DNA of 62,765 bases, filler included, from Choristocarpus tenellus KU-1152 (taxonomy: Eukaryota; Protista; Phaeophyceae), in the NCBI GenBank assembly GCA_964200185.2. It is 11 parts of 11 records of this genome, joined end to end, with 100 filler letters (N's around TTAATTAATTAA, not from the genome) between each part and the next. Parts side by side here need not be neighbours in the genome. Positions count along the whole stretch, not along the records: positions 20,276 to 26,278 come from CAXNAD020009196.1; positions 26,379 to 29,734 come from CAXNAD020020574.1; positions 29,835 to 35,901 come from CAXNAD020009027.1; positions 36,002 to 43,258 come from CAXNAD020006450.1; 7 more parts are not named here. The stretch is one strand, 5' to 3'. A program made the position numbers and the translations under genes. Numbering within the stretch: position 1 is the first letter of the stretch; every line of letters starts with the position of its first letter. Under the pieces are notes generated by a model. It searched no databases. It had not been told where the DNA came from and was given only the letters and a program-made list of their open reading frames with translations. Shown here piece after piece: positions 20,568 to 57,670 of the stretch.

Positions 20568-21216
20568 TAAACTTGACGGGGGGGATCTGGCATGCTGACT
20601 CCAGGGGTTGTGTTTAGGTCCATATATTGCCTCGTCCACATTGGCTCCGGTGGCGTGCCAACACCAACAAGGAAACTTCCTTCCCTTCTCTACTTCATCA
20701 GGTAAGGTGGTCAATTGGGTCCGGAGGAGTCAAAGCGGATCCTGTTTAGCAGGTAGGTGATCTCATGTTGTGCCCTCCTTGTAATCCTGGCATCGTGAGC
20801 TGCCAGAGTGTGGGCCTCTAAGGGAGTCAGGTGTCCATTCGAGCCATTGTGATACTGTACTGGTTTTGATGTCATTTGAGTGAATGTGTCGGATGTAAGC
20901 ACAATTTCCTTCAGCTGGGTCACCTTCCTTTTGCATTCTGTCGCCTGGACCAAATCCGAATTAAAATCACACACAAGATGTGCATCTAATTGTCATGTTC
21001 TACAGCACCCTATCAAACTATGAATGGACGAACTCGGCTAAACCCCTGCACCCTCTAGGATACTCTGGCCAACATTTACCATAGATTTAAAGGGAGGGCA
21101 CACTCAATTTTGTGCATTCATAGACATCAGCATAATTCTAATGATTTTGTTCATCTCCTACCTTACAAGCAAGGTTTCCTTGATAGAAAACTCTTACTCA
21201 CCTCATCCATTTCTTC

Positions 21217-24200
21217 TTAGGGTTAGGGTTAACGCCGCCATAAAAATGGACGCACCTGTGACATTGACCTCTACTACACGAAGTTACCACAATCTGACTT
21301 TTTATTCCTCTTAACCTTCATCCCACCACTTTAACAAAGTGCGATCATAGTGCATGTTGTGCTAGTGTCCTTTACGTGATGCTCCTTCAAACCACAAACA
21401 CATGTGCATTGATTGTACAAAGACAGAAGGAAGGGCTGTGAGAAAGGAAGGTTTGTCCAGATGAATGAAATTGCCCTTATTTCTCAGATGTTCACTCAAA
21501 TGACATGAAAATCACCACATAGGCCCCCTCGCCATGGACACCAGAACCTCCTCCTCTAGGATCCTACAAGTCAATGTCAGATGGACGTCGATTTTGACCA
21601 TCTTGCACCTTTTGGTCATGCCAGAAATGAAACCTCCCGGAAGAATATGTGCCAGTAGAAGAAGATTACCTGTGAACATAATTGTTGACTGAAAGAGTCC
21701 TGCACAGTGCTCAAAACACATGTACCACAGAATAGACTTAAGGACCCTAAAACTCAACGGCGTCACTTTAGGTGTTACAAGTTGTAATTATATACCGCTA
21801 CAAGCACTGCACACCATGAGATCAAGATAGCTCTCTTCAGCATAAACAACATTGCAGTTTGCAAATATAGTTAATATAAACTCCTTCAGCACTCAAAAGT
21901 AGGCATACTTGTATATAGATCAATGATTTATATCTACTCTTCGTCAAGACCGCTCAAATAAGGGGAGAGAAATTTCTCTCTATTGACCTCAGCACCTTGC
22001 CCATACACGACATTACTACCATCAATACCATCCATGCCATCACTTTGAAGTTCTAACGAAAACTAGAATCCATCATCCCACCTACTACTGCATTTGAAAC
22101 TCTCTCTGTTTGACCCCCTGATATTTCACAACACTCCAACAAGGAGCACTTCAGATCTCTGTGGCTTTGTCGCTCTGCTGATCATATACAGCTGGACTGT
22201 CATTCCTAGTTAAGGCCTAAACATACTCAGGACAAGAGGAACACACACCCCCATCCCCAAACATATTGAGGGTTCCGATTGTCTTCACACATTTTTGTAC
22301 CATTATTACCTACATACCATTATCCTACATACCACTAGCCAATGTCCTTAACCAGAAGCGACCTAGGAACCCAAAACAGGTACTAAGCCAAACCCCAGGT
22401 ACTATGATGAAGCTACTGGGAATTCGTGACAGAGTGAACAAACCCTAACCCTAAACCAGAAAAGAGAAAAAAAGAAAACCAACCCTGGACCACTATTAGC
22501 ATTTACATTTCTGCCACATAGTTGAATTTCGTCGTCTCCTGAGCAACTTCGCTTTAACCTCCACAACAGAATCATACAGTATTCAAGGAAGCCAAACCGA
22601 GTCATCTAATGTAATCTTTGGGCGTAACTTAAAGGCAGTCAACATTCCCTCCTTAAGCACATGGACTAAAATTAAGAGGCACCACTTTCTACATCATCAG
22701 CATCAATAGGCATATTTTGTTTCTCATTATATTCCCCTCCGATCATCAGATTCATTTTTTGATAAAAGGAAACCATGGTATCATCAGTATGGGAGACTCC
22801 TTCCCATTAATGAATCTGAAGAGATAGTAAGGTCTCGCATGTCCCCCTGCCCCTCCAGTTTCAGGCCCTTCTCATTGGCCAAGTGGAGTAGGCAGATGAA
22901 ATAGAATGGAACAGTTACACCTGATTGGTTCTCCTGTTTAGAGTCAGCACAAAAGAAAAGAAAAGTAGTCAATGCACAAAATGAATCCTACGAGTATTTC
23001 TTCTTTCCAGTTCGAAATTTGAGAAAACTGCCAACGCAAGTACCCTACACCCCTAACCCTAACTTTAGACGAACACAGTGTGCACACAAAATTCAAACAG
23101 AGAGGAACAGAAAAGAAAAAAAAAACACACAAACACAGATAGATACAACAACTCTTAACTAAGAAATAGCGATCAGGAATTGGGTACTACCAAAACCTGA
23201 GTAGTGTTCATACTCCGTAGCATAAAACATGGAGCCAGGATGCCAAAATAAAAAAATGCCGAGATAGAATATTTTTGCTCAACACTGTCACAGTCCCCTG
23301 CCTCTCTCCTGCTCGAAAATATTCCCTAACCCTTACCTTGGAGGAAACACTCTTGACAACATTTGAGAAACACATGTGTTCCTTCTCCGTACTATCCTCT
23401 TGCTCCTTGACCATTTCGTTACAAGCAGTCCTGCCTTGGTTCTTCTGCTGCTCTCTGTGGGTGGAAGTTTCAGAATGTTCATCCCTACTGACCTTCAATT
23501 GTAGGCATCCAATTTTCAGTTGGGGTTGTATTGCCGCAGTGTAAGAGGTGGTTGGGGTTAGGGCTAGGGTTAGGTTCAATAAAAAAGAAATAGTAGCAGT
23601 AGCTTCATTGGTAGACACCAAGTGGTGGAAGCCTCAACCATCATCATATCATACCAAACACATTCATTCCCTTCTGCCTGTCTGTCATTATACCAGCCTC
23701 CTTTCCTTCCATATTTCTAATTCTAGAAAGGATATGAAAAAACACAACATATTTTCAACTACATTCCAACAACAATTAAAATATGAGGAAGTGAAAAGAC
23801 CAACCATCTTGCTGTTCTATCATTCAGTTTTCAACCTACTGGATATTGTTAGGGTTAGGATTGAGGGCACCTACGGTTGTGGTATTAAAAAATCACACAA
23901 AAACTGCGCTTTTATTATTTCTCTTGATGCAAAAAATTCAATTCCTACCAGCATTTGATGCATATATTTTTATTTTTCTCAAAGTGCAAAAAATGTCAAC
24001 CGTATTATTTTATTTTATCATATTTTAAAGGGCGTAAAATACATCATTGGACCCTGGCAACATGTAGCAATAGCAATATTACTATCACCATCACATAAAT
24101 TATCCTATTTCCACAATACAATGCTGAAAGCACTTGATTGTATGTGGATGTTAGTTAAAGCTACCAATGAAGCTAACCCTATCCCTAAACCCAAGAAAAG

Positions 24201-25916
24201 TTACATAAAAAACCATAAGAGTACTACAATGCTAAATGTATTAAGAACGTAATGACCAAGAGGGCAGTAAGAGTAACAATAACAAGAAATCGAGAAATAA
24301 TACTGATAAGTGTCCACAGAATGAAGCAAGTGTATCATCAAACTAAGCAACCCAAACCCTAACCCCACAACTTACAGTGGATGCTAGAAAAAACACAAAA
24401 CCTCTGGATAGCTCAAAATGTTGAAATTGTTCCATAAGACACAGCAAACAAGAAAGAACAACACTAGCCTCAACCCTAATCCTTAAACACCACGAAGCCA
24501 GAAAAATGATTGGAAAATATCGATATAAAATAAAATGTAGTCAGCCCAGATAACCCTAACCCTATTGATATCGAAAGAGAATTAAAAATGGGTTAGGGTT
24601 AGGGTTAGGAAAAAGATGGTCACACACATTATTAAACGTACTTTGGTGCACGATGCATGATGCACCAAAGACAGTCAATCACCAACTGCACCAGACGTGG
24701 TCATCTCAATTCTTGTATCAAGTCATCTCGTCATAAACTCGCATGCATGAAACCCCTATAACCCTAACCCTGAAATGAACACAGAAAAAGCAACAGAATT
24801 GTTGAACTGCCTCTCCTATTATGCTGCACACCAAAAGTGTGACAAACTCTGCTGTACCAGAAAGAAAAAACCCCCAATAGAAATGCCTGCTACTATTTGG
24901 GTTAGGGTTAGGATTAGGGTTTCTATTCAGTCTAGACCAGAAATAATCATACTTTAACTCCTCCTTCAGTTGGAGATCATGACAACCCTAACCCTAACCT
25001 GTGCAACGGAGGTATTTTCTTGCAGAGCCTCATCCTTCTCAAGGCCCTTCCCGCTCTTAGCTGCATTATCTCCTGTGGAGGAGTTGATATGCTGCCACAA
25101 ATTGACCTTGAGTTGGCGGACATCGACCTTTTTTGCCTTTTTAGCGTAACTGCCATTTTTTATATAAAAAAAACATGCACATACAAGAAAGAAGATTGCT
25201 ATTGCCAATTGGTGTCAGAGGGCAACTATGCAACTGCCATTATAGATTTTAAATATATATATATCCCAAAATGTTCACCTTAACCCTAATGTAACAAAGA
25301 AATGCCAGGGGACAATACATCATCAAATGAAAAAAAAAGAGCATTGATGAAACACACAGTAATGTCTAGCCCTAACCCTAACCCTGAGATATAGAGCTCA
25401 AAGTAAAAGGTAGAATGAACCTTAACGATTGCAGCTAACCCTAACCCTAAACCTAACCCTAACCATAGTACTGTCATCAAAAAATGCCAAAATCATAACA
25501 TGTCAAATATTTCAGAACACCAGGCTCTATCTCCACCAAAGACATTACAGGGGGTCCATGCCTGACTTCAGAAGTGAATTAACCATTTCAAAAAGTTAAA
25601 ACATTCAAAATACTCCATAAAAAGCAAGCTTTTTTGAGAGACAATGTTATTATCCCTAACCCTAACTCTAACATGTAACCAATATAACAAGAGTATATAC
25701 TCAGAGTACATATGTTTCAAGTTTCTGCATGTAGCCAGCGTAAGACTTACGTGCGTGTATTTAAACTTCATCAACATTCTATACACTCTACAATCTATTA
25801 CTTTCACTATTATTATTATTATTATTAGTGTTAGGGTTGGCAGGGACACAAAGAGGATCACACAACAATCAAACTACCTTCTTGCACCACGACTAGCTTG
25901 ACCCTAACCCTAACCT
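21217..25916. repeat. Cluster of about 20 short interstitial telomeric (TTAGGG/CCCTAA)2-5 tracts
   Basis: Examples: 21217, 22441, 23051, 23324, 23556, 24350, 24551, 24589, 24759, 24898, 24985, 25367, 25436, 25652, 25901. Both orientations occur. Confidence 0.9.
22784..25149 (-). CDS. NCAPH: Condensin complex subunit 2 (CAP-H/barren/Cnd2), last three exons
   Basis: Exons 24999-25149 (YAKKAKKVDVRQLKVNLW), 23337-23492 and 22784-22933 (VTVPFYFICLLHLANEKGLKL, stop). These are the two hallmark C-terminal motifs of CAP-H, and the phases are consistent. Confidence 0.88.
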
Positions 25917-26090
25917 TAAACCATTGAATGATCCTAGTCTCCAAACCTTCTATAGTTACAATTGTTACCGCCTTCAGGATTCATTTGCCCTATTTCAACA
26001 TTGTGCAACATCAACAACACACAACTTGATAGAATTTCAGCTATCAACCTAATATAGTTATCCTGCACACTTGTTTAAAACTTCGCAAAA

Positions 26091-26278
26091 CATTATGGGT
26101 ATAACACCTTTTCACATAACATTATGGGTATAACACCTTTTCACATAACATTATTGGTATAACACCTTTTCACATAACATTATAGGTATAACACCTTTTC
26201 ACATAACATTATCAGTGTAACACCTTTTCACATAACATTAAAGGTGTAACACCTTTTCACATAACATTAAAGGTGTAA
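26091..26278. repeat. 29-bp minisatellite, about 6.5 copies, running into the gap
   Basis: Unit CATTATGGGTATAACACCTTTTCACATAA with gradual variants. Confidence 0.95.
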
Positions 26279-26424
26279 NNNNNNNNNNNNNNNNNNNNNN
26301 NNNNNNNNNNNNNNNNNNNNNNTTAATTAATTAANNNNNNNNNNNNNNNNNNNNNNNNNNNNNNNNNNNNNNNNNNNNTTTTTTTTATTTATTTTCGTTT
26401 TTTCTTCTTCTTTTCTTCCCTTTT

Positions 26425-26492
<68 letters not shown>

Positions 26493-27793
26493 ATTGTATC
26501 ACCACAAACCAGTGCAGCCCCTCCGTCACTGACTCACAGCTACCAGCCTATCCTGCGATCAACCAACTTGAACCGCCTTTGTCACTGATTTCCACTCACC
26601 AACCACATCCAATGACCAACCAGTGCGACCCCTTCGCCACTTATTTCCACTCACCGCTACCTTCCACTCCACCATACACCACTCAACACCACTCCACAAT
26701 CACTCAAGAACACCCCTTTATCATCCCCTTCATACCGTTGCCTTTGAACTAGAAGACATCTACCCTGCCCAAACTTGACCTCCCCCCCTCCTGGTTGATG
26801 CCTATTCTAGTTCACAATTGCACCTCCTGCCCTGGTTATACCCAATCCTTCCTACTCTCTACCAGACCCTTCGAAACTCGAACTGGGTCTCTCTGGTTGA
26901 CCCTAACGTATACCATGAACACCCCCAACTTCCATTTCCCCTCCGTCTTTCTATCTCTATTTCATATGCCCCCGTTGGTGCCAACCTTGTGGCTCCCCCT
27001 ATCCTGCCAGAGTGGAGGGCGTACTCCTCCAGACTCAACTTGAGCTCCCCTTGCTATCCTTCTCAGGACACATTTTGCTTGGCCTCTCTTGATCACCTTC
27101 CACTTCTCACCATCCCTCTATCTCATTGGGAGGACATCAGGAGGGAGTTCCGGGAAGCATTCCATGATTGCTACCACCACCTCAACGCCCTCCATGCTGT
27201 CTTCACCCCTTTGCCCTTCCATCTTATACCTTGTCAGCACAGCTCCCTTCCTACCCTACCTTCCTCTCGGCCCTGTGGATGTCACCTCAACCTCGTCCGC
27301 TTGATTTTCTATCCTCCCATCCTAGTCTGACTACTCCTTTTCTCCATACCACACCTCTCCTCCTCACCACAAATTCCCCATGTACCCCCCCCCCCCCTCC
27401 CCTTCCTCCTTTCACTCCCCTTCTCTTACAAGAAAAGAAAAAGAAAAAGAAAACCTCAGCCCTAGCCTTGTTAATTCACCCTCCCTTCCTAGCCTTTCCA
27501 AGCACTCTTTTTCGTTTCTACGATCATCCTCCGTGTCAGGGGTCTCCTCTTCTTTAGACTGGCTGCCCTACTCCTCTTCTTTTTTGTGTGACTCCTACTC
27601 ATACCCTTCAACAAGAACATCATGAAATGTTGTGTTGGAAGTTTAGACACTGTTTGTGGTAGTACTGGACTGCTGAAATCTCACCCTTGATTGAGCCTAC
27701 TTGGTTCCCCTTACTCCCACAGCAGAAATACATACAACTCCGTTAGGGCCTTCACTACATCTAACTCTTGACTCCTAGGGTTCAACCCCCTAC

Positions 27794-29734
27794 TCAATCC
27801 CCTATATGTACGTAACTCAGACCACTGTTCCCAAGCTGTCTCCTAACTCTTCTGAGTGGAACGCGCAGCCTATCCTTTGGCATACACAGCTGCAAGGCAC
27901 TCAAACACACCATCTCCCCTTCCCAACCCAGGGACCGCCCCTGCCAATTGACACACGGACAAAAACATTGGAGGTTAGATTGAATATTATGCCTATGAGC
28001 CAAAGTATCTTAGAGGGTAGAGCCGCATCCATTTAGGGACCAAAATCCAACGTTGCGATTTCGATGTAAATTTGGCTATCGTGTTTGTTAGGAAGTGTCA
28101 ATATCCTTGTTCCGAAGACACATTTTCATAACGTACATAAACATTTTACCTAATCTGAGATATTTTGGAGTAGAAAAATGTCATAAAAACCCCGAAAGAA
28201 ACCAAGCCCCAAATGGACAAACAGGGCAAAACTCGTACCCTCTAAGATACTTTCACTCTATCCCATCTTGATATTCCGTCTGCCAGATCATTCTCCTTTC
28301 CAGGGAAATGTTCTGCTGCAAAAGACCATTCCCCTGCTACTTCTAGCACTCCCATTGTCCTCATCAATCCTCCAGCCCCCCTAACCCTAACCTTAACCAT
28401 AACCCTAACCCTAAACCCCATGCTTACGTAACCAATGCACTGCTGACTTGTTATCCCCTCTCAACAACACCACGGTGTCCTTTCTTCTTTGCCCTACCTC
28501 CTCCCTTCACTACCATCCCCATCATTTCCAATACATTGACTGATATATTCCTTCCCTCCCCTTATATTACACTCTGGGCAATCATACCTCCATCACTCAA
28601 ACGTCTAGATGTTGCAACCTCCTACTGCTGTTAAAACACTCATCTGAGAACCAAGTCGCCACTGGTGGTCTCGCCACAAATCCCAGAAGAGGTGACCTCA
28701 AGCTTTCCCCTTTTTCTGCCATCCCCCACTCTGCTACCGACCTCCACCAATACAAGACTTCTTTGAATTCTCTACCTATCCTGACCTCTGTTTTCTCTGA
28801 CCACTACCGTAGGCTATCCTACTCAGTCAACCCCCCTTTGGTATATAACCCCAACAGATACACCATCTGCCAAAGGAAGAATCGTCTTGTTTGTGTAACA
28901 TAAGACATGTGAAAATGTTTCCCTATCAGTAAACACATCCCACACATCCCACACATCCCACACCCTTGCCACTGCCGTCAACTCGGTCCACTCCTCTAGC
29001 AATCCCTTCAATCTCCCTGATTTTCCTTCTGGAACACAGATTATTGTGGCCTCAGTATCTATCTTCCACCCTACTACTACTACTACTACTTGTGGTATGC
29101 CACCCTCTCGGCTTTTTAGCTGACAAGATGGGGCATTCCTCTACCTGCCTATAACCTGGCAGTCATATATGGTCAGACCCTAAGGAATTTGTTCCCAGCC
29201 TCAATCTCCGCCCATACCTAAACCATTCGCTCTCCTCATCCGCATACATACTAGCAAAAAGAAAAGTCATCTACCCCCCCCCCCCCACACACACACACAC
29301 ACAACTTCTGGAACCTCAGATGTCTCATTTAACTCACATATATTCCTCCTATCTGTGAGGAATGTGTCACACTTGCAGTAGTTCATTTGGCTTCAGGTAC
29401 CTTGGCTGCAGAGAGTGGATTTGTTTTGCAATAGGAGAATTCTAGAGCGCTTGTCATTAGGTCCCACCATTCCAGGCTACTCCTCAAACCAAATTGAAGC
29501 CTTGAGTCTATCACCATGACATGTTCAACACAGTACCCCAACCTAGCTGCCCCCTTTGGTTCAACTGGTACCTGGCAAAAGGCATCCTTAACATCCATAT
29601 CACTATACTAACCCTAACCCTCGGGGAAGTTCTTCTCTAAGTATACTATCCCCTTGATCGCACCTCCCAACACAGGGCCACAATGGGCAGGGGAGGGCAT
29701 CTTTGCAAAAGAGAGCTACTCAAATAGAGTATTT
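27794..29734 (-). mobile_element. Degenerate DIRS/Ngaro-like (tyrosine-recombinase) retrotransposon, RT-RNase H relic
   Basis: RT-like MDVKDAFCQVPV...DSRLQFGLRSSLEWW (29383-29598). RNase H-like ISVNVLEMMGMVV, LRGDNKSAVHW, AEHFPGKENDLADGISRW, continuing as RHNIQSNL after the MITE. Many stops and frameshifts. Confidence 0.75.
27997..28258. mobile_element. MITE family B, full copy inserted in the DIRS relic
   Basis: TIRs GAGCCAAAGTATCTTAGAGGGTA and TACCCTCTAAGATACTTTCACTC; TAT/TAT duplication. Removing the element plus one TAT restores the host frame (R-W-D-R-H-N). Confidence 0.92.
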
Positions 29735-30196
29735 NNNNNNNNNNNNNNNNNNNNNNNNNNNNNNNNNNNNNNNNNNNNTTAATTAATTAANNNNNNNNNN
29801 NNNNNNNNNNNNNNNNNNNNNNNNNNNNNNNNNNAAACATTGTAAGTGTGGAAACCACTAATCAGTTACTTCACCACTATCAAATATTGTACTACTGTAT
29901 TCCATTACTACAGTCTCATTGGAGAAGGAAAATCTTCGATTACAATACAGACCTCATACACACATATGTATATAGTTTTCATTGTTTCCTCCTGACACAT
30001 CTGCAAAATGTCAGAGGGCATAATAATAAAAATACAGACCTCAAAAAGGAACTTCAAACGGTTATACGGTACAAAAGACACAGCGCTACACGGTATGATA
30101 ACTACAAACCCTCATTTTCACAAACCAAAAATACAACTTCCGAGTACAACGGAAAACTACCCCTTAAAGTGGTTCGTGGGCTAGATTTTGTGTGCA

Positions 30197-31885
30197 ATGA
30201 AGGGCATGACTGAGGTCACACCCTTCAGCACAACCAAAGAGACTGTCCTCCCCCATGACTCCAATCTTTACCCCGGGGATCGGTATCGGAAGGAGAGGCG
30301 TGCTCTTCGTTTGATGACATCCTCGCGTGCATTGAAGTTGGACATGATTCTTCAAAAACACCTTGATGACATTGATTCAAGATGGAAAAGTCACGACGCT
30401 GAGTGGGACAGTCTGAATAGGAACATGAAAGCGTTTGGGGTGGAGAGGATTCCTCGTGATGGACCCAACCTCATTGGGCTCAATGTAGGGGGGGTGCAGT
30501 TCTGTGTCCCTCGACTCCTAGCCCAGACTCATATGTCGGGTCTCACTTCTCTGTTGGAGCTTGACTGGGGCGACAATATTTCCCGCGATGCCTCTGGTAA
30601 TGTCTTCCTTGACCTCTCAGCGTATTGCTTTGAGAAACTCATCGACACATTGACGCTCATGAAGTCGCAGGAGGCACGGATTAAGGAGAGTAGTTTCCCT
30701 GCCCTAATGGTGGAAAGCGATCAGGCCAAAACTTTTGGCTATCTATTTGACCTTTTCAGCCTCACGTACTTGACTGTTGGAAGAGATGTGGGGGGTCCTA
30801 GGAGCTCATTGTTAGAGTCCCATAATGGGAACTGGAAGAAATTAGTTCTAGACCAGTGCCCAGGTATGCCTGTGGGGCTGCGGCTCATCCAAAAGGGTTC
30901 AGCTTATGATAAGTTTGAATATACTCATCAGCAATTTGGTTCATGGCCTCTGACTTTGACGTTGTTTCGATGTGGGAAGACAGTATATGGATGGGTTGGA
31001 TGTTGGAGCGGCGAAACTGCTCCTACTGATGATACCGGCTCTAAAAGTTCCAAGGTTCCATTCTTCATGAAATCAGCCGCGGGTAGACTTATTTCAGTTG
31101 GGCCTGCGATGGTCGAGTACGTCGGCGATCGTTTCTGTTGCATCAAAGTGTGTAAGGAAAACTCCAACCTTCTCATTAACGAAAAGGGCTTATGGGAAGG
31201 CGTACGTAATCGGGCAAGAAAGGACGAACGCCTTCACACTACCATGGACGAAATCTTAAAGGTCGAAATCCTTCCCACTACCATCGACGAGTTTGAAATC
31301 TTCGAGCCTGTGACGGCAGCTGTATTGCCATCTTCTTCCTCAGATCTGGCTAAGCAATCTAGCCTTGACGAAGATACAGAGATGCACAAACTTCTCGCTG
31401 ATTCCCTGCGTCATGAACAGTCTGCTCTGCAAAATGCTTGCGCCGACCTGGACCATGTCGTCAATACACTACAGGAAGCTAAGCGACTTCAGACCGTCAT
31501 GTTTGGATCTGGAGTAGAAGAAACGATTGTGGAGTTGAATGTCCAGGGCAGGATCATGTCAACTCTACGATCTACTCTACAGCTCTGTCCAGAGTCAGCC
31601 CTATCAGCCAGGTTCAACGAGGAGAGGTGGCCACCAACACAAAAAGATCTTGATAGGCATGGTCGTCATATCCTCAACTGCAACCACGTGTGCTTTGAGA
31701 AAATACTGGATGTGTTAAGGATGCGCAAGGGAAAAAGTCAAATACAAATGAGATGGGAGAGGTGGGCACCATCCTTCATGTGTGTTGGGGTGAAACTGCA
31801 AGATAAGGGGGCCTTTCAGGAGCTTGTGGATATGTACTTCCCAGGGTGCCAATCCTTCATCATGGAGTTTGTGGAGTTTAAATAG
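30197..31885 (+). CDS. Intronless protein with two KCTD-type BTB/POZ (K+ channel tetramerisation-like) domains flanking a degenerate TLDc-like region
   Basis: Uninterrupted ORF of about 562 aa. BTB1: IGLNVGG...RDASGNVFLDLSAYCFEKLIDTL. BTB2: IVELNVQGRIMSTLRSTLQLCPESALSARF...CFEKILDVLR. The middle has LRLIQKGS...LTLTLFRCGKTVYGW...IDEFEIF. Confidence 0.85.
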   Translation: MKGMTEVTPFSTTKETVLPHDSNLYPGDRYRKERRALRLMTSSRALKLDMILQKHLDDIDSRWKSHDAEWDSLNRNMKAFGVERIPRDGPNLIGLNVGGVQFCVPRLLAQTHMSGLTSLLELDWGDNISRDASGNVFLDLSAYCFEKLIDTLTLMKSQEARIKESSFPALMVESDQAKTFGYLFDLFSLTYLTVGRDVGGPRSSLLESHNGNWKKLVLDQCPGMPVGLRLIQKGSAYDKFEYTHQQFGSWPLTLTLFRCGKTVYGWVGCWSGETAPTDDTGSKSSKVPFFMKSAAGRLISVGPAMVEYVGDRFCCIKVCKENSNLLINEKGLWEGVRNRARKDERLHTTMDEILKVEILPTTIDEFEIFEPVTAAVLPSSSSDLAKQSSLDEDTEMHKLLADSLRHEQSALQNACADLDHVVNTLQEAKRLQTVMFGSGVEETIVELNVQGRIMSTLRSTLQLCPESALSARFNEERWPPTQKDLDRHGRHILNCNHVCFEKILDVLRMRKGKSQIQMRWERWAPSFMCVGVKLQDKGAFQELVDMYFPGCQSFIMEFVEFK

Positions 31886-32502
31886 GCCTGCGAAGGAAGT
31901 GATGCGTCGCCTCGGTCAGGTGGGTTTCTGCTTGTCCCAAGGAAGATTGTGCTTGTAGAATGCTCTGGATAAAACAGTAGCCTAGCCTTGTGAATATATT
32001 TCATGTGGAGTCACACTGAGCCAATGTAAATGAGAGATACCCCCACAGGCAGGTTTTGGCTGTTCTTGCGTTTTGGAAGTTTTCGCGATTCGCAGATATT
32101 TATATGGATGAAGTTTTTAAAGCTGTGGACTATGAGATTGTTTTTTTTCTCCATAATTCGAAAGCTTTTTTGAAACGGTTCAGAGAAATTATCGTGTTAC
32201 ACATTTGTAAAAAAAAGAAGTCAGATTTTACATGTATTTGTCAGTGGTGTTCTTGAAATGCAACTCTCTGGGTACCCCCTTTTGTTTGCTTTGACTCACT
32301 CTCAAATACACCACGGAAAAACAGGCACTGAGGGATAATATTCAAGTACACTGGTATGTATATACCTGGACGGTTAAGTGTGAGTGATGGGGCTCTCACC
32401 CCGGAAAGGTGGAACGTGACAGCTTTCTCCTTGAGACAGAGTTCATTTTTTTTGTGGGATGCCTAGTAGATCTACCTCTTCATGCATTCCTTTTTGTGTA
32501 GA

Positions 32503-32630
32503 GGCTCAAAGTATCTGGGGGGGGTGGCAGCTGTCCATTCGGGCCCCATTTTTTCATGTCGTGAATTTTGGGTGATTTGGTTACATGCATCGGATGGATA
32601 ATATAAGGGCACTTCTCCTAGTCATGGCAC
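32503..32630. mobile_element. MITE family A, truncated copy
   Basis: GGCTCAAAGTATCTGGGGGGGGTGGCAGCTGTCCATT plus the internal family A body. Confidence 0.8.
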
Positions 32631-33892
32631 GAATATGGAACCTGTCCAATCGAATCGCAGTGGAAATAGAGCTGGTCCTTACAAGTAGTCTGTACTCCAA
32701 ATATGTCCAAGGCAGGTCCTAGGAAAAAAGATATGTTGTGTTGGTGCTTGTCACGTTGTGGACAGTTGTTGGCTGAGAGCAACAGCTAGAGCTGTGGTCT
32801 AGTTAGTACAGTGTTGGGATTTGTCGCACGCATTACGCTCTGTCCATGCTGTCATTTGTGAGCTAAAAAGGTCATCCATGGATCCTATCGACATCAGATA
32901 TATCCTTTTAGCTTCTCCCGTAGAAATTTCTTTTGTGTTCTGTGTATCACAATCCCTTGAGGTGTGCGTGAGATACTGTCTGCAAACCTAATTAGTTCCA
33001 CAAATGGTCAACATGTGTGAACGCCGAGTTCATAACCTTACATATATATCAACTTGTCTATTCAAACGATTTGTCCCCCTCTGTGCTGTACTTCCACCTA
33101 CTGCAGTATATCGTGATGGGGACACAAAGATTAGCCCATAATGATGGGAGCCACTTCTTGGCACAGACCGATGATGAACATGATCGGCTTGGTGTGAGCA
33201 ATTGGAGTATATCATGAGTGTACCAAAGCGGTTACATGTGGAGATACAACTACTGGGGTGTGATTGCCGGGATTCTTGCTCCCTTGAGGTACACGTTCAA
33301 ATGTAGATTGATGAAAGATTTTGAATATTGTACTTACATGTTTGAAGTGAACAGGAGGGCATCTGTAGTGCTGGAGGAGCAGTTCACGGATTTCATAAAG
33401 CTGCGAAACCTGTGAGATTGTGACCCAAGTGATCCCTTGACGAATGCTACTTTGTCCTTGTTTTCACTGTGTGGTGATACAGTTGTGTACGTGGTTAGCG
33501 TTAGGAGGAGTAATGCTGATGTGTTTGAGCAGGCTTGTAAGAAACGGGATGGACTCTATTAGAAGTAATTGAGTCTTTCTGAGGGGAAAATACTCTACAT
33601 ATGTGTAGGGCGACCCTGTATCTGTGTATTGTATTGGTTGCAAGAGCATAACAAGAGTACTAGGGTGAGGAAAGCAGAAGAAAAAAAGGGGAGAAAGAAC
33701 CTTCTCGTGTCTCCTGTCCTCCTCTTCTGCATAGTGCGTATATTTGTTGAAACAAATCTGTGTGTCTACACTTGTGAATCTTCTGACGTCTGTGAGTGGC
33801 CATGTGCGTGTATTGCATTTACAAACGAGTTGTTTGTAGTAGTGCAAGTAGTGTGTCGAATGAATGGTATAGTCCAATCAAAACCTGTAGCA

Positions 33893-34151
33893 GAGTGAAA
33901 GTATCTTAGAGGATACGAGGTTTTCCCTGTTTGTCCATTTGTGGCTTGGCTTCCCATGGGTTCTTTTATGGCATTTTCCTACTCCAAAATGTTTCGGAGT
34001 AGATAAAATGTATACGTTGTGAAAAGGTGTGTCCAGAACAAGGATATTGACACTTCCTAACAAATACGATGGCCAAAATTACATCAAAATCGCAACATTG
34101 GATTTTGGCCGCCAAATGGACTTGGCTTTATTCTCTAAGGTACTTTGGCTC
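33893..34151. mobile_element. MITE family B, full copy
   Basis: GAG...CTC TIRs with the AAAGTA core; AGCA/AGCA 4-bp duplication. Confidence 0.88.
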
Positions 34152-35178
34152 AGCAAGGTATCTTATATTTCATGAGGGGGAACTCTAACTTAGCATCTTC
34201 TACACGAGGCCTTACCATGACTTGGTATCCGTCTGAACAAAGCACGCCGTAGTTCAAACGTTCAGACAGTAGAGAGTATTTGACTCGAGTATTTGACATC
34301 TGAATGTTCTGCTATGCTGTAATGGGGTGCCCTGTTCATGTCTTGACAATGAGTTTTGTGTACCATTTGCACCTCGGGCTAGCAAGCATTTCGTTGTGCA
34401 TTCTTGGAGAGTACTTGGTTTCCAGGGTGGAGGTTCATGTGTCTTGAATTATAATCGTAGCTAGGACGTCACGAACAACCACACAGGTTTGTTGTATATT
34501 TGGATGTGTAGAGATCAAACCAATTGCCGTTTGACAAGTTTGGCTGCTTTGGTGTTGTAAAAGAGTCTCTTCACCTAGTACAATGCCACACCAGACTGAC
34601 TCAAGAAGTGCACATTAAGTGCCATCGACCACGAAGAGAGGTGGGAGTGAAATGATAAGGGCAAGGGAGAGAAGACCGAGAGGAACATATTGTACATTGT
34701 ATTCTGATATCGGTTTGAATCTCGTGCTGGAGATAGATTTATCGTAGAGTGATACATCAAATATCTGATTGTCCTATCATGTGTAGTATGGACTTTTTAG
34801 TGGAGGTTAGTGATGTCCAGAGCAAGTGTAGAGGGTGCATGTAAGCTAAGTACTACTGAAATACTACTTTGTTTGGTTTGTGGAGTAGGAACAGGTTACT
34901 GCAGCACTGTATGTGCTCTCTGTGTTTAACCAACACCCCTCATAGAACCTGACTGAAATTCAGATATTCCGATCATCTTCAGAGACAACGGATGCCACTA
35001 TTCATTATTTTTCTCAACAATCCTTGCCAAGCAGATGGCGAACTACTGGTGCTGACTGCACCATTGAGCTGATGTCCTGTCCCTCAAATAGTTTTTCGAG
35101 TGGTGAGTGTAGCAACATTATGTTCTACTACCGTTATGCTTGTTTTCCTAATCCTCTTGCTGGTTACTAGTAGGTTGG

Positions 35179-35391
35179 ACACCGCTCAACCTGTGCCTGG
35201 ACTTCAAGCACAGCCAAGTCAATCACCGAAACCAAACGTTTGTATCCACCAACACATCTCACGCCACCACCTTATCAGTTACCTGTAGTTTGAACACCGC
35301 TCAACCTGTGCCTGGACTTCAAGTATGACCAAGTGAATCACCAAAACTAAACGTTTGTATCTGCCAACACGTCTCACACCACCACCTCATC
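35179..35391. repeat. 115-bp tandem duplication (2 copies)
   Basis: ACACCGCTCAACCTGTGCCTGGACTTCAAG starts at both 35179 and 35294. Confidence 0.9.
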
Positions 35392-36431
35392 TCCCTCCTC
35401 GTCCCTCCTTGCCACCTTCGACCCAGTAGTTGAAGAAAGGTGGATGCTGCAAACACTGCAAGTTGACCTTTAATTACTGGCAAATGCCCTGTGAAGTAGT
35501 TGTGGTGGATGACAACACGCTATGGCTGATGAAAAGACTCAGGTGAAGCATATTCAGAGTATTACAATGGATCTCTAGTAGATATGATGAGCACCTGATA
35601 CGCTTCTGACATGTTGTGTATTGTTTTGTAGTATGATAAGGATCCAGTTTCTCCTTTTTTCTCAATGTGTAGTTACGGCAACGTAGTGAGCACCTAATAT
35701 GTTGAGGAAAGAGTTTGTTATGAACATAAGTTGTAAATGCTGTTGAGAAGCTTGACGCACATGAGGCTCATCGCCGGAAGCTAGCTGTTGAATTACATGG
35801 TAAAGCACACACTGAATTATTAATTGCCTGTCAACCATCCATCATCACTGATTTGTGGATTAATGTTGACTTATTGTATTTTATATACGTACGTACTCTG
35901 TNNNNNNNNNNNNNNNNNNNNNNNNNNNNNNNNNNNNNNNNNNNNTTAATTAATTAANNNNNNNNNNNNNNNNNNNNNNNNNNNNNNNNNNNNNNNNNNN
36001 NGTTGGATTTGAAATATAACAAAAAAGAAGAATTGTTTAACTGAAACGGACACCCCCACAAAACCCCCCCCCCCCCAGATACATTGACCCTCTGAAATAT
36101 AATGATAGAACAATAAAATAATTCATTTCAATATTAAAATCCCAAGAAAGAACATTAAGCAAAGATGTGTTTCCCAAATAAAAACTTGCCTAGGTCTTTG
36201 ATTCACTGTGAATTGCCTCTGTGTTTGAGACTTTGTAGACGAAGAGGATAATCAAGTTGGGGTTACCTCCGTAGATAACTAACCTCATTGTGAGCATTCA
36301 AGTAACTGAGACTACAATGGTCTCTTACCAATGGTGACGGCTCCTGCCTCAAGTGGACAAAGTTTACAGCTTGGATCCATTCTGGTGTGCTTGATTGAGA
36401 CTATGAACCACAACATCAAGTAGGAGAAGAG

Positions 36432-36593
36432 CTTTTTATTTCCCATCAAACTATTAACATTAGGGTTAGGGTTAGGGTCAAATTATTAACATTCTTTTTT
36501 ATTTCCCACCAAACTATTAACTTTCTTTTTATTTCCCACTAAACTATTAACACTATTAACATTCTTTTTATTTCCCACAAAACTCTTAACATT
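36432..36593. repeat. ~30-bp minisatellite (5 units) with one unit partly replaced by TTAGGG repeats
   Basis: Unit CTTTTTATTTCCCAYYAAACTATTAACATT; unit 2 reads AGGGTTAGGGTTAGGG-TCAAATTATTAACATT. Confidence 0.85.
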
Positions 36594-37213
36594 TCGGCAC
36601 CTTTCCCTAACCCTAACCCTCCCAAAAGACCCATAGCAAAAAAATATACAGTATGGTATAAATACTAGAGAAGTGTACACACAAAATAGGTCCAATCAAA
36701 TATTTAGCAACACATTTTCCTAATATTATAATGCTATGTTGCTAATATAAAATATTACAAAATACTATTTTGTATTAACTATTCAAATAACTTACCACTG
36801 GTACCAATTCAATAATCACCTCCAATTAATAAATGCTACACTTGTCAATCAGCTTTTAAAAGCATATTATGTATCATATCAGATCATATCAGATTATACC
36901 TAACCCTACCACACAGTACCATATTATACCAATCATACAGAATAAATTTGGTCTGTCAAGACTAGTCATCACACCACCTGTGGACATGTAAATTACATAG
37001 ATTTGCTATACTGTGTCTTGAATTAAAAAAATAAAAATCCACAAGTGCAAGTTTTGAAGAAACTTAGGGTTAGGGTTAGAACTTATCAACACAGAAATAT
37101 TTCCCCAAAACGTGTACTGTGTTGAACATGAACATACCCTATATAACAAGGGCTAGGGGCTGTTAAAGAAAAATTAGGGACGATACAAAACTATGTCGGT
37201 AAGTCTGATTCAC

Positions 37214-40119
37214 CTCTGCCAAACCGGATGCAAGATCAGCAGCAAAGAACTCTCTCTTGTAGGTCCTGACTGTCTCTAGAAAGGGAAGTTTGTTCCACAT
37301 GGAGCGAAGGAGACCTCTTCCCCTGACTTCCTCCTCCTCCCTGCACTGCCTAAGTCTCTGCGAAGTTTTAACCTTTAGTGCCACCAGGTGACGCTTGAGG
37401 TCTGCAGTGATAGAGCGGAATAGGCTTGGCCGCCTGTTACCAAAATAGTTAATAATAATAGTTGATGATAATAGTTAATAATAATAATTGATGATAATAG
37501 TTAATAATAGTTGATGATAATAGTTGATAATAGTTAATAATAATAGTTGATAATAGTTAATAATAATAATTGATGATAATAGTTAATAATAATAGTTGAT
37601 GATAATAGTTAATAATAATACTTAGAAATGTTAGTATATATAATACGCAGCAATAAAGAGTATGATGGTTAGGATTACAGCTAGTTTTTGCTTTTGTTTT
37701 CTGCATAATAGCACTAATTTTACACTAGGGTTAGGGTTAGCGCTAGTAGAAGCAACTCTAATTGAGACTAAAACAAGCATTGAAAACAAAAATTTGTTTT
37801 AATCTGTTCACACTTTAAGGGTTAGGGTTAGGGCTACTACCAATAACTAAAAACATTGACTGCAGGGTCATTCTGACAAAATCAGAAAAGATGAAAGCAA
37901 TAGAGAATTTTAAAACAAGAAAAAAGAACTCCCTACCTCATACACTCATCCTAACTTAGGGTTAGGGACTGGGACTATCAATAGTGCTCAAATGGAACAT
38001 CACCTAACCCTAACCCTAACCCAGATGACATCGATTGCACAATTGGCATACTAAGAAAATTATTGGTATGGTGTTAGTAATATGGTGTAACACCCGCAAG
38101 ATCTGGGTTAGGGTTAGGGTTAGGGTTAGAGTTGGTATCGCTTATTCCACCACAACTAGAATATTTGTGATGATAGAACAAAGAAAGAAAGACACCAATA
38201 ACAGAGTAGCTTTCTGCTATGCATGCATGTACTATTGAAAGCAGGAAAAAGGCAAAATAACCCTAACCCTAACCTGTTAATTTCCTATACAATATTAAAA
38301 CAAAATAAAGTCAACTGACATTTAAATCAACCAGCAACACATAATCACTTAGCTGTCCCACCAGGGAACATTCCATTTTGAAAAGCATGACTCCCTCCAA
38401 CCCTAACCCTACCTCCTCCCATTTTCCTTTCACTAAAGAGAGCTTTATAGTGATTTGAACAAAATCCACCACTACAGAACACAATGAGGTTAAGACACTC
38501 TGGAGTGGCCACTTCACCTTTTTCAAACCAAGTAACATTCACAACAATCAGAACAATGAAACCATCTCTATCATTAACTATATCAACTATCAATACTACT
38601 CTCCTCCTTCACTGCAGTCCCAGCAATCACCACAATTGCTTCAATGTAATTACATCACCCATGCACCACATTATACACCACAATTACTATTGGGTGCAAC
38701 TGTACAGCAAACAATCTAACCCTATCAGAATTCCTACTCCCCCCCTCCCCCCAAAGGCTAACCCTAACCCTAACCCTAACCCTAACCGTAATTATCACTA
38801 ATTAATAGGGTTAGAGTTAGGGTTATATATGTGTTGCAAAATTCCAGTCCATAGGATCCATTGCGGTTCTGAGGCATTAGGGTTAGGGTTAGCCATCCCA
38901 CTATAATAACTCAATCAATAACTGTATCAACATAGACAGGCATGTACTGTGCTGGGTGAACATGAAACACACCATTGCAAACTGTGGTTAGGGCTAGGGC
39001 TAGGGCTAGAGTTGAGTGTATAGCTAGGTATAGGTCTAGTCAATTCTAGTCTATGTGCAAAATGATTATCCACAATAAAACAACAAAAAGCAAGGAACAG
39101 GATAGACTTAGGGTTAGGGTTAGGAGGCCAGAGGTTATCATCATAACCCTAACCCTAACCCTCATTGTAACAAAAAAAAGCCTCTGCCAAATGCCACCCA
39201 CCAGGGTGGAATTACTTCATCTTACTCATCTTTCCTTGTTACTGACACTCTCTCAATTAAAATATTTTCAAACAATTTGAAGTTGTATTTTTTAGTTTCT
39301 CTTCTGAAAAAGAAATCATCCAAAGTAGATTCAAACTTTATACAGCTTCAAAGACAAAAACAAATTCCGAACAATTGCTACAAATATCAGAACAATTGCT
39401 ATTTTTTTGTATTCACTCTCCTGGGGCTGTGTCCACATCCATCAACATACTATTGCAAAAGAGAGTTGACCATTGTGACTGGAGCAAAAAGAACACAAAA
39501 GCACATTCAGGTGTCCTCATTTATAGAGGGTTAGGGTTAGGGTTAGGGTTAGGGTTACAGGTCCAGCACAACTTCAATTGCCAACACACACACACTCACA
39601 AACAGCCAATGACAATGATCCATATATGAATCTATCAAGGAAATATCCTTTTCCAATGATTATATGTATTGCTAGTAATACTATGATCAAGCCAGGGTCA
39701 GGGTTGGGAATGCTAAAGAAATCCCCAAAATCACAGAAGCGATGTGCCCCTACAGTAACTTCCACTTCATTGGGGTTATAAGATTAGGGTTAGGGTTAGG
39801 GTGATGACGAATGGTACAGTCCTGTCCCCTCCCCTCCCAAAAAAATACACCAAAAAATACAAACTCACAGATCCATGGAGGAGTCAGCAGTGCAATGTCC
39901 CTTCTCGATGAAGGCGTTGTGTAGCTGATCGTAGGTCTTGAAGTCATCAGATCTGTGTCCATCCACATCATCCAGCGACTCCAACGTGTCCGACCGCAGT
40001 CGGTTAAATTGGTTAGGGTTAGGGTTAACTATGCTTTGATGACGTCGCCTTGAGACCAACCCATTGCCCCCCCCCCCTGGAGGTGTCTCCATTAAATTTA
40101 AATTTGAACAGGGGTCCAT
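37214..40119 (-). CDS. SLC26/SulP-family sulfate/anion transporter, first two exons
   Basis: Exon 1, 39869-40119 (ATG...CT|GTGAGT, phase 2), joins exon 2, 37214-37433 (CAG|G...LPFLETVRTYKREFFAADLASGLAE|GT), matching the SLC26 N-terminal LP..W...Y....DL.AG motif. The rest of the gene is beyond the contig. Confidence 0.72.
37446..37620. repeat. Compound AAT/GAT low-complexity tandem repeat next to the acceptor site
   Basis: Reiterated TTAATAATAATAGTTGATGATAATAG-type units. Confidence 0.9.
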
Positions 40120-43100
40120 CTTAACCTTCAGTACGTAGGAGTAAAAGGATAAGAGTTAGGATTAGGTTTAGGTTTAGGGGACATGTTGCAATGAACAACG
40201 ATAATGGCAACATGGACGGGGCAGGAGAGGCTACAAACTAGATGAACGCAGATGATTGGCTAGATATCGCATAGGCATTTTCTTATTGGAGGAAATGTGA
40301 AACTAAGTGCAGTGCCTGCTGAGTCTGGTTTTGGCATTGAACTTGTCACAATCTTGTCACAATCTTATTTGAAATAAGGTTGTTTTCAACCTCCAATGGC
40401 GTAGACACTACTGCGACAACGATGGTCCTGCTGGTCATTCCTGGGGAAACACTGCCGCATTCATATTCCAGTCAAAACTTGTAGTATCAGGGTTAGGGTA
40501 CAAATAGTTCAAATTTTAACATTTATGTCGCCCTTTGGTAAAATGTAACTCATCAGGTGTGTGGAGGTTGCCCTATCCATAACCCTGACCTCTCAGTAGC
40601 AAAGAAAAGGGAGTGTGTAGTACTTTGTATTGCATGCTTTGGAGGCCTGACATATCTTGCCACCCACTAAAAATGCACGGTGGTGCTGGTGTACAATATC
40701 AACATACATAGCATGTATCATAGCATATATCGTAGCATTGGTGCATGCAAGTAAACACAAGAAAAAAAAAATGGTGCATTCCACCAGATCATTCCACCAG
40801 ATCTTTTTTATAGATCTAGCCTGCACCCACCACTTGATAAATGCAACCAAGATATTGATCTCAAGAGATAGGGTGGAAGTAAGTACAGGCAGTCCAAGGC
40901 AGCTTCAATCCACAGGAAACCAAGACACACTACCTCATCAGTGAAAAATAGGAAATCAGATAACATCTTGCATCACTGGTGTAGCCTTTTTGCCTATACA
41001 ACACTCATCTGGACAGCAAGAAGATGGGTTAAAATTCAGCTCGACGCAACTCTCAAATACGACACTATCTATAGGCAATGCACCGAACACCAATCACACA
41101 GAGCAGCACAGGATATTCATATAGTAGTAAGTTTTCGGCGAATGAAATCAAGACGGGTTAAGGGCGATAAAGCCACCACCCCCCCCGCAGAGCATTGGTG
41201 ACGTTGGATTTGGGTCTGGGGATGGGGCGGGATGAGTTTGAACCATGTGGTATAGCAATGTGGAATTGATATTTTGTACCTAGGTCGGATGGATGGTGCG
41301 GAGGGGTAGAGGTTCAACCACAACTGACAGTGTTATCATCTCCTAAGTGCAAGAATCCTTCAGTAGTTCGAGTGTTCAAATGATAGAGATTAGGTTGGTC
41401 ACAGCACCACACACAGTTTTGCCCTTTGTGAAAACATTGCTTCGACGTTCCAACCTCAAGGGTGAAGTCCAAAGGAAAGTAATCAAGACCCATTTAGTTC
41501 CTAAGCTCTCGTTCGCACTTGCCTTTTCAAGGCCGCTTCAAAAAACCGAAAATCTCGCGACTCATACCTCAGGTTTCTTATTCTTCACACCTTACCTCAC
41601 TGCCAAAGGAGTCGCTGTCATCACTATCCGACTTGAACGTGTTACCAGAGCCAGAGTCGTTTAGCTGTTGCTGGTTCTCCACATCAAGCCATTCAATCCC
41701 AACAGACTCGGCCGATCTGCAAGGAGGCAAGACCATTTGAAGCACGGGACGGAAGATAAGAGATATTGTCGACTCCAACCAGAAGCATAATTCTTATCGG
41801 GCAGATATAAGCGAACTCTCCGTCTCAGAGATCCTTTGCCCCATGAGATTATAGTAGATAGCGTCTGCTACCTGGCCAGTCCTATCACACTAGAAACAAA
41901 ATAGGAAACGAAATAGGTTACATGATAGATTTAGTACAGCGATGGTACTTTGTTGCAGGCTTCTTGTCCTGCGATTACACCCCTTGCATGTGTGACAGCC
42001 AAGACAAGACGTTTCAAGTTCATCTCTGATATCGTACCCGGATATTGGTGAATTGCCACCAGAAGGAGGAGCATCACCTGGACCCACTGCTGCCATCTCC
42101 ACCTGGGCAGGGCGCCTATTCTGGCCCACCTGCTCTCCTGACGACTTGCCAAGTAGGGGAGTTGGTACCTTCTGTGGTGCGACCAGTACGTTTTCAATGA
42201 CTTTGATTTCAGAATCTTCTTCAAATCTACTTAAACAAAAATTTGGGAGTAATCCTACGTTTACTAAAAAAAACTGTTTAATATCAGTATAAAAAGTGGT
42301 TGATGAATGAGATCATCCTCTGTATAAGAGGGACTGTTTTACTGGTTCGAACCCCATCAATTAGAACTTCGTACTAAACCAAATAATACCTCATCGTTGA
42401 TCCAACATCCATCCATCTGAAAAGGACTTCAGACCCATAGTATCTTACTAGAGAGGGGGGGGTGGGGTTTAGATCATGACTTCCGTTCATTCTGCAGGTC
42501 ACTCAATTCCTTACCGATCAGTCCATGCAGAGAGGTGGAAGAGGAATGTGCATCCTGATGTAGGAAAATCCCCTTAATCTGACACGCGTTCTCTCAGGTA
42601 ATAATCACATACAAACCACTACAGATGACCCGAATGGACACCTGACCCCCCATTAGGATATCATGGACCTCAGAGTGTACATATACACTATTGTAATGAT
42701 ATATCCTACATATTTACCACAAAAATGTTAATCATGGATGAAGGTTTAGCGATTTGGCAGGATTGTTCTGAGAGTGGATACACGGAAATTTGGACAATTT
42801 GGTTTGTGAGTGGATGCGTTGGTGACAGAAATATATTGGGTTGGTAAAAAATGAAGTTGGTGTGGCATTGGAATGAACGGTAAGGAGTGTGAGGTTAAGA
42901 GTGGGTAATTGTTTAATCCAGAATTTGGTGAGCAAAACAAAATATAGATTATTTTTGGAATCCACGACTAATGCAGTACGGTTCTGTTGTGTGCTTGTGT
43001 GCCCTTTTGTAACTTAGAACATAGACGCCAGTGTTCCCCTTGCGAACCACATGCTCCAACTTGCTCGGCATTGGACTTCTTTTTCAAAGGAATCTGAAGT

Positions 43101-48507: not shown

Positions 48508-48552
48508 GTGAGGATTACCTCAGGAACAGGTGTATAGGAAAGAAAGAATAAA

Positions 48553-56907: not shown

Positions 56908-57670
<763 letters not shown>

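What the first reader, a model, noticed from the sequence alone, without database searches (positions are those of the whole stretch)
21217..40498. Pervasive short interstitial TTAGGG tracts: candidate telomerase-templated break-repair or overwriting system
Seen: roughly 50 tracts of only 2-5 TTAGGG/CCCTAA units occur across the window, in both orientations, in introns, intergenic DNA, TE relics and one exon. They have no common flanking sequence, no TIRs and no evident target-site duplication, so they are not a TE family. Established: TTAGGG is a widespread telomere repeat, and short interstitial telomeric sequences in vertebrates are attributed to telomerase acting at double-strand breaks, but there they are sparse. 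Here the density reaches about one per 200-250 bp in two contigs. Inference: in this lineage, telomerase (or telomeric-RNA-templated synthesis) is a routine part of break repair and a major mutational process.
Basis: partly seen in the sequence, partly recalled or inferred. Interest (0 to 1): 0.85.

Follow-up and report, generated by a model that had tools for sequence, protein, structure and literature searches.

The report
Telomere-repeat scars packed into algal introns
In a likely brown alga, dozens of 12-36-letter pieces of the TTAGGG repeat are crowded into the introns of a few genes (up to one every 160 letters) and even into a spliced, likely protein-coding exon, and were likely written there by telomerase during repair of DNA breaks, far more densely than in humans.

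Summary
Real. The window is 11 short contigs of a likely early-branching brown alga. It holds 40 exact TTAGGG/CCCTAA tracts of 12-31 nt (48 allowing mismatches); chance gives under 1. No other hexamer class exceeds 3. The tracts are patchy, not pervasive: 40 of 48 lie in two genes (condensin H and an SLC26-like gene), and 5 contigs have none. Single units sit at background while 12-17-nt tracts form a separate peak, in both orientations with no shared flanks, as expected of one-step insertion. One tract inside a minisatellite has tract-free sister units showing 2 nt in register and a ~16-nt duplication, the classic short-ITS footprint. One tract lies in a spliced exon (NPNPN) and two begin introns. 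Over 1,400 other contigs match only at tracts, so the class is genome-wide, and a second ochrophyte has it too. Telomerase involvement is inferred: no orthologous empty sites, long reads or repair genes were available. Selection for telomere-protein binding sites remains a live rival. Dense internal telomere-like repeats are known from Eimeria, C. elegans and a coccolithophore, so this is a new variant, not a new kind.

The parts
21217..25919 (.). Cluster of 18 tracts (14 exact runs >=12 nt; 4 TTAGGG and 10 CCCTAA on +) in and downstream of the introns of a minus-strand condensin subunit H (Cnd2) gene
24984..24999 (-). Tract whose letters form the predicted 5' splice site of a Cnd2 intron (intron starts at 24998)
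   Evidence: GT-AG rule and open phase-0 join of three exons; not tested with RNA
23324..23337 (-). Degenerate tract at the predicted 5' splice site of the next Cnd2 intron (intron starts at 23336)
   Evidence: not tested with RNA
22787..25148 (-). Three 3' exons of the Cnd2 host gene (24999-25148, 23337-23492, 22787-22933)
   Evidence: Pfam PF05786 E=1e-7 and 1e-10 for the first and last exon; frame join
28379..28414 (-). 36-nt tract with 2 mismatches, in multi-copy relic DNA about 120 nt beyond a MITE copy
29608..29621 (-). 14-nt tract that puts two in-frame stops just before an RT-like motif of a decayed retroelement (family recalled, no library match); paralog cover appears to end at 29606
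   Evidence: (table 3)
36460..40590 (.). Cluster of 22 tracts (17 exact; 11 TTAGGG and 6 CCCTAA on +) in the introns and one exon of an expressed minus-strand gene; 15 are in intron 37434-39868
36432..36602 (+). About 30-bp minisatellite whose first unit is interrupted by tract 36460-36478; tract-free sister units act as the empty site: TT in register, then a ~16-nt duplication with one mismatch
39869..40125 (-). Spliced exon holding tract 40011-40027, read as NPNPN in the only open frame
   Evidence: X3 contig covers 39868-40123 with 0 differences and joins to 41594 across CT..AC; frame
37214..41717 (-). Host gene exons 41596-41717, 39869-40125, 37214-37433; the last resembles an SLC26/SulP N-terminal motif (recalled, not confirmed by Pfam, NCBIfam or PDB)
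60944..61453 (.). Cluster of 4 exact tracts (13-16 nt) in contig 11
4649..4669 (+). Lone 21-nt tract between exons of an EF-hand gene
45213..45226 (-). Lone 14-nt tract downstream of a Cir_N (CWC25-like) exon

Best explanation
These are real, very short internal telomere-repeat tracts, likely inserted in one step when telomerase extends one end of a DNA break by two to three repeats before the ends are rejoined. Shown: motif specificity, a length peak at 12-17 nt, both orientations, no shared flanks, clustering in a few low-GC intron-rich genes, and one junction with 2 nt in register and a flanking duplication. Inferred: (1) a break exposes a 3' end with 1-6 nt matching the telomerase template; (2) telomerase adds about 2-3 units; (3) end-joining trims and seals, which would blur the end register; (4) slippage and point mutation later lengthen or erode the tract (a variant unit is repeated three times at 38986-39013); (5) existing tracts bound by telomere proteins would attract telomerase or breaks nearby, giving kilobase-scale clusters. 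Step 5 is the weakest. Tracts survive where harmless: in introns, as a 5' splice site, or in frame as Asn-Pro repeats.
For: Specificity: 40 of 74 hexamer runs, next class 3. In the four tract-rich contigs (19.7 kb), matches of 6, 7 and 8 nt number 34, 8 and 4 against 34.9, 8.9 and 2.6 expected; 9-11 nt number 12 against 0.85; 12-17 nt number 30 against 0.03. So there is no pool of excess single units. No consistent strand bias: 4+/10- in the Cnd2 contig, 11+/6- in the other, both genes on the minus strand. Sister units of the minisatellite lack any TTAGGG, so that tract did not grow from a pre-existing unit. In-register letters and duplications are the footprints reported for mammalian short ITS. 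Paralog cover of an RT relic appears to stop 2 nt short of tract 29608 in three runs (weak, the column may mean contig end). TTAGGG is the Ectocarpus telomere repeat and that of the non-xanthophyte ochrophytes studied; no TTTAGGG dimer occurs in the window.
Against: Only 1 of 48 tracts has a usable empty site, and a sister unit of the same array shows a 9-nt partial duplication without any tract, so the duplication could be ordinary array turnover. The 3' end register is uniform (p=0.85) and duplications are not enriched overall (2 of 40 against 0.63). No telomerase-RNA-like flank. No tract-free allele in three runs, which are probably one strain. The strong clustering (p=6e-14) needs an extra assumption. 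A selected binding site of about two units would give the same length peak. A homologous CCCTAA tract is kept at the same place before the GCN5 start in L001 and L002, which are 85% alike; this shows long persistence and fits selection as well. This organism's own chromosome ends were not seen.
Confidence: 0.55

Rival explanations
1. The tracts are selected binding sites for a telomere-repeat-binding Myb (telobox/TRF-like) protein that marks or regulates certain genes. They arise by any mutation and are kept at about two units.
For: Clustering in particular genes and in lower-GC, more skewed DNA (rho -0.38 and +0.31 over 62 non-independent 1-kb windows). The length peak is near two units. The tracts are mostly intact (26 internal mismatches in 887 nt). 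Brown algae have TBP-like Myb proteins. C. elegans intronic ITS associate with repressive chromatin. The tract before GCN5 is retained in L001 and L002.
Against: No tract upstream of the contig 7 gene (41720-43258) or in the GCN5/H4 contig, unlike promoter teloboxes (recalled). Fifteen sites in one intron at irregular spacing, plus tracts in a dead retroelement and a minisatellite, fit scars better. Selection alone does not give the junction at 36460.
Confidence: 0.2
2. Telomerase-independent templated insertion: the broken end copies telomeric DNA, telomeric RNA or a neighbouring tract (polymerase theta or ALT-like template switching).
For: Explains the uniform end register and local clustering. 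TTAGGG-like sequence is abundant in the runs (summed depth 108,664 over the bin holding the 36-nt tract, against about 17 for single-copy DNA).
Against: Copying from neighbours should carry flanking letters along, and none are shared. Such copying has no obvious reason to favour this one motif.
Confidence: 0.13
3. Ordinary microsatellites: a chance single unit is duplicated by slippage, with this motif favoured because bound telomere proteins stall replication.
For: Variant units are copied in tandem at 38986-39013 and 40155-40179. The L001 tract is long and homogenised. Tbf1-bound internal TTAGGG repeats expand by slippage in yeast (described there as preliminary data). Duplication of a 7-10-nt match would give 13-16 nt.
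Against: Duplication of background matches should peak at 12-13 nt, because 6-7-nt matches dominate (34 and 8, against 4 of 8 nt); observed are 2, 6, 6, 5 and 8 at 12-16 nt. Other hexamers are not expanded. The minisatellite sister units have no seed unit.
Confidence: 0.12

Closest known systems
Short interstitial telomeric sequences (s-ITS) of mammals (PMC2246262, passages; PMC7215372, results section; PMC6410037, passages)
   Same: Short TTAGGG runs at internal sites with unrelated flanks; in-register letters and duplications at junctions; 2-25 copies by the review's definition.
   Different: Human has 229 loci of >=4 units, none exonic, or 714-2,920 by looser counts. Most tracts are only 2-3 units, they are clustered, and one is exonic. 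Telomerase origin rests here on one junction, not on dozens of empty orthologs.
Eimeria telomere-like repeats in repeat-rich (R) segments (PMC4199364, passages)
   Same: A telomere-like repeat scattered through the genome, second commonest repeat class, with alternating rich and poor segments and no avoidance of genes.
   Different: In Eimeria they come with abundant CAG repeats. Here no other tandem repeat class of 4-8 nt is enriched, and the patches seen are kilobases long.
Caenorhabditis elegans ITS (PMC6800518, passages)
   Same: Over 1,000 sites, 63% in introns, a few in exons.
   Different: [quoted passage not shown]
Pervasive interstitial TTAGGG in the coccolithophore Calcidiscus leptoporus (PMC13518057, passages)
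   Same: Alga with frequent internal TTAGGG throughout an intron-rich genome, blamed for assembly fragmentation.
   Different: Haptophyte. The main text gives no tract lengths, junctions or mechanism; its Fig. S5 was not seen.

Membership tests
Short interstitial telomeric sequences | Repeat equals the host's own telomere repeat | tested here: inconclusive
   TTAGGG in Ectocarpus; GCN5 groups with Ectocarpus+Undaria at 90/95 and 88/98; this organism's chromosome ends not available
Short interstitial telomeric sequences | Short runs (2-25 units) at internal sites with unrelated flanks | tested here: met
   definition. Only 8 of 48 reach the >=4-unit search threshold used for human
Short interstitial telomeric sequences | One-step insertion shown by an empty orthologous or allelic site | tested here: inconclusive
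   One case from sister repeat units, one weak paralog boundary, no empty allele in 3 runs, no relatives found
Short interstitial telomeric sequences | Excess of 1-6 in-register letters at the 5' junction | tested here: inconclusive
   2 nt at 1 of 1 informative site
Short interstitial telomeric sequences | Dependence on telomerase | not testable with these tools
   No genome for TERT or telomerase RNA; no shared TERC-like flank, a feature reported mainly for rodents
Classical slippage microsatellite | Falling length spectrum continuous with single units, many motifs affected | tested here: not met
   Separate peak at 12-17 nt, singles at background; one motif class only
Transposon/MITE-borne repeat | Shared flanks or terminal inverted repeats around the tracts | tested here: not met
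   Flank sharing at control level; DNA between tracts of contig 7 is mostly single-copy, X1 depth 17-27; self-BLAST places only tract 36460 inside a repeat
Fusion-type / head-to-head ITS | G-rich arm facing a C-rich arm across a short spacer | tested here: not met
   Of 7 neighbour pairs within 60 nt, 2 are head-to-head, 2 tail-to-tail and 3 same-direction; most tracts stand alone
Telobox cis-regulatory sites | Concentration at promoters or 5' ends (recalled from plants) | tested here: not met
   0 tracts in 41720-43258 upstream of the contig 7 exons and 0 in the GCN5/H4 contig; two loci only
Telobox cis-regulatory sites | Bound by a telobox Myb protein in vivo | not testable with these tools
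   needs ChIP or CUT&Tag

The most novel reading that the evidence does not exclude
In brown algae and their relatives telomerase works as an everyday fill-in polymerase at breaks inside particular active genes. The process feeds itself because each tract recruits the enzyme to the next break, so it writes tens of thousands of two-to-three-unit tracts that become the main source of new intron sequence, new 5' splice sites and Asn-Pro protein repeats.
Probability: 0.2. Interest if true: 0.8.

Novelty: new variant of a known kind. Interest (0 to 1): 0.55.

Why it matters
If telomerase wrote these tracts, this genome holds orders of magnitude more telomerase-at-break scars than the mammalian sets (about 130-230 loci each) on which the short-ITS model rests. 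Junction rules, insertion length and local feedback could then be measured with real statistics, and tested by Cas9 breaks in a brown alga. It would also show a lineage that has relaxed the usual barrier against telomerase at internal breaks without fragmenting its chromosomes. If they are selected binding sites instead, they would point to a telomere-protein-based gene mark in a group whose chromatin control is unusual. I found no description for brown algae in searches, and the main text of a 60-genome brown algal survey has no 'TTAGGG' (its supplements were not seen). The general phenomenon is in print for other lineages, which caps the score.

Tried and rejected
No whole genome is held, so there is no genome-wide count and no look at TERT, Ku, LIG4, POLQ or Pif1. 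Protein-level empty sites: exon 37214-37432 found nothing, the tract-bearing exon gave 1 unrelated repeat-protein hit at E=5e-4, and the RT-like piece found nothing. The SLC26 label was not confirmed by Pfam, PDB or NCBIfam. Run search: 3 runs of one organism and one study, no RNA holder listed on record; X3 is treated as RNA only because it joins across a GT-AG intron. Laying on contig 5 was swamped by a very high-copy MITE and showed no letter-level empty site. A MITE motif found 0 viral contigs and 24 prokaryote contigs taken as chance matches, not examined further. Metagenome GCN5 search returned 80 loci (best 80 of 217) but no close brown algal relative. No literature found on a brown algal telomerase RNA. 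No earlier notes on this genome. Rejected: assembly artefact; TE family; subtelomeric satellite like Ectocarpus's 98-bp unit (flanks unique); RNA-level function such as a splicing enhancer (no sense-strand bias); head-to-head fusion scars.
Full report
What the window is. It is 11 contigs of 2.8-9.4 kb joined by artificial N44-12-mer-N44 linkers; no whole genome is held. The GCN5 exon at 56227-56637 groups with Ectocarpus and Undaria (support 90/95, 88/98, short of the tool's starred level) at about 65% identity, outside their pair. The organism is therefore likely an early-branching brown alga or a close sister. The Ectocarpus telomere repeat is TTAGGG (PMC11541908, passages). Xanthophytes use TTTAGGG and the other ochrophytes studied TTAGGG (PMC3622300, passages).

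There are 40 exact runs of 12-31 nt and 48 tracts allowing mismatches. Order-1 and order-3 Markov controls give 0.07 and 0.4; orders 4 and 5, which learn the tracts themselves, give 5.8 and 24.7. The class makes up 40 of all 74 hexamer-period runs and the next class has 3. Eight tracts reach 24 nt with under one mismatch per unit, about 130 per Mb, against 229 such loci in the human genome (PMC7215372, results section). Logan contigs of three runs carry the tracts of 37630-43150 without gaps, with holes only at the three longest tracts, where repeats were skipped. X1 may be the assembly's own source and all three runs are from one study. On that mostly single-copy 5.5-kb stretch, 1,816, 839 and 413 contigs were laid, of which 81%, 83% and 96% run on into unlike sequence, with loose ends at tract edges whose consensus agreement is only 0.37-0.41. 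So more than 1,400 other X1 contigs carry tracts of about 19 nt or more in unrelated flanks. This is a rough lower bound on the genome-wide number and does not show that the genome is as dense as this window.

It is patchy. Exact tracts per contig are 1,0,0,14,3,0,17,1,0,0,4 (p=6e-14). Contig 4 holds the 3' exons of condensin subunit H (Pfam Cnd2). Contig 7 holds an expressed gene whose third exon resembles an SLC26 N-terminus (recalled; no match). Fifteen tracts sit in one 2,435-nt intron, but the 9.4-kb EF-hand gene has one and the GCN5 contig none. Tract counts go with lower GC (rho -0.38) and stronger strand skew (rho 0.31) over 62 non-independent windows.

Anatomy. In the four rich contigs, matches of 6, 7 and 8 nt are at background (34, 8, 4 against 34.9, 8.9, 2.6), matches of 9-11 nt number 12 against 0.85, and there is a separate peak of 30 tracts at 12-17 nt, with 8 longer. 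Start and end registers are not significantly biased (p=0.065 and 0.85). Orientation is 4+/10- in one minus-strand gene and 11+/6- in the other. Flanks are no more alike than controls. Of 7 close pairs, 2 face head-to-head, unlike the bdelloid cases noted by earlier agents (unchecked).

Junction evidence. Tract 36460-36478 interrupts the first unit of a ~30-bp minisatellite. The three sister units have no TTAGGG; the tract begins on two T's that two sister units also have, and is followed by a ~16-nt repeat of the preceding letters with one mismatch. In-register letters and duplications are the footprints reported for mammalian ITS (PMC2246262, passages). Against: this is 1 site of 48, a sister unit shows a shorter duplication without a tract, and duplications are not enriched overall (2 of 40 against 0.63). 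At tract 29608-29621, in an RT-like relic, high-depth paralogs appear to stop at 29606 in all three runs, a weak hint because the column may report contig ends. No tract-free allele was seen.

Consequences for genes. An X3 contig of depth 306 covers 39868-40123 with no difference and joins to 41594 across a GT-AG intron. The only open frame through three exons reads tract 40011-40027 as NPNPN. Two consecutive Cnd2 introns are predicted to start inside tracts (24998 and 23336), with phase-0 joins that keep the frame open; this was not tested with RNA.

Other organisms. Among 80 GCN5 loci from metagenomes (best 80 of 217), only the two top hits, L001 and L002, carry exact tracts: 7 runs, 4 distinct tracts, in 11.3 kb. 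The other 78 loci (403 kb) have no exact run and 2 borderline degenerate ones. Their best named match is Chrysoparadoxa, and they do not group with the window. They are 85% alike and share a long CCCTAA tract just before the start codon, near-perfect in one and decayed in the other. The trait may thus be wider among ochrophytes, and tracts can persist and be reshaped by slippage.

Mechanism. I commit to telomerase-primed insertion at breaks followed by end-joining (0.55). Motif specificity, the separate length peak, strand symmetry and the one informative junction are shown. The enzyme, the break and the local feedback that would explain clustering are inferred. Rivals are selected telobox-protein sites (0.2), telomerase-independent copying of telomeric DNA or RNA (0.13) and protein-biased slippage (0.12).

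Relation to what is known. It works like a short ITS and meets the descriptive definition (2-25 units at internal sites; PMC6410037, passages); the mechanistic criteria are inconclusive here. Dense internal telomere-like repeats are described for Eimeria (PMC4199364, passages), C. elegans (PMC6800518, passages) and Calcidiscus (PMC13518057, passages). Searches (listings) and passages of a 60-genome brown algal preprint (10.1101/2024.02.19.579948) gave no account for brown algae; supplements were not seen and the library lacks most subscription papers. Verdict: a real feature and a new variant of a known kind (ultra-short, locally extremely dense, entering exons and splice sites), with the telomerase claim plausible but unproven. 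Interest 0.55.

Noticed in passing
27992-28260 (also 9745-9912, 10929-11198, 20356-20568, 33892-34152, 53773-54036): About 260-bp MITE-like element with inverted ends and very high copy number: X1 summed depth up to 1.5 million against about 17 for single-copy DNA. The best resource for an empty-site test.
   Followed up: partly
18-169, 18218-18398, 32503-32634, 55678-55855, 59438-59599: Second short non-autonomous element with C/G-run inverted ends; several contigs end at or inside it.
   Followed up: no
54610-57667: GCN5 (minus strand) and histone H4 (plus strand) lie head-to-head about 450 nt apart.
   Followed up: no
L001:3714-3948 and L002:2872-3028: Homologous long CCCTAA tract directly before the GCN5 start codon in two 85%-alike copies from another ochrophyte, possibly the 3' part of a 5'-UTR intron.
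   Followed up: partly
26520-29700: Contig 5 is largely multi-copy retroelement relic with paralogs abundant in X3; an RT-like motif at 29386-29607 recalls tyrosine-recombinase retroelements (recalled; no library match).
   Followed up: partly
30185-31885 and 47280-48551: Long uninterrupted ORFs in an intron-rich genome: a BTB/POZ protein (566 aa) and a TylF-like methyltransferase-domain protein (423 aa).
   Followed up: no
26082-26278 and 37444-37620: A 29-bp tandem array at the end of contig 4 and a 10/13-bp AT-rich minisatellite in the tract-rich intron.
   Followed up: no
9437-9536 and nine more linkers: Contigs are joined by an artificial N44, 12-mer, N44 spacer, so neighbouring contigs need not be neighbours in the genome.
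   Followed up: yes
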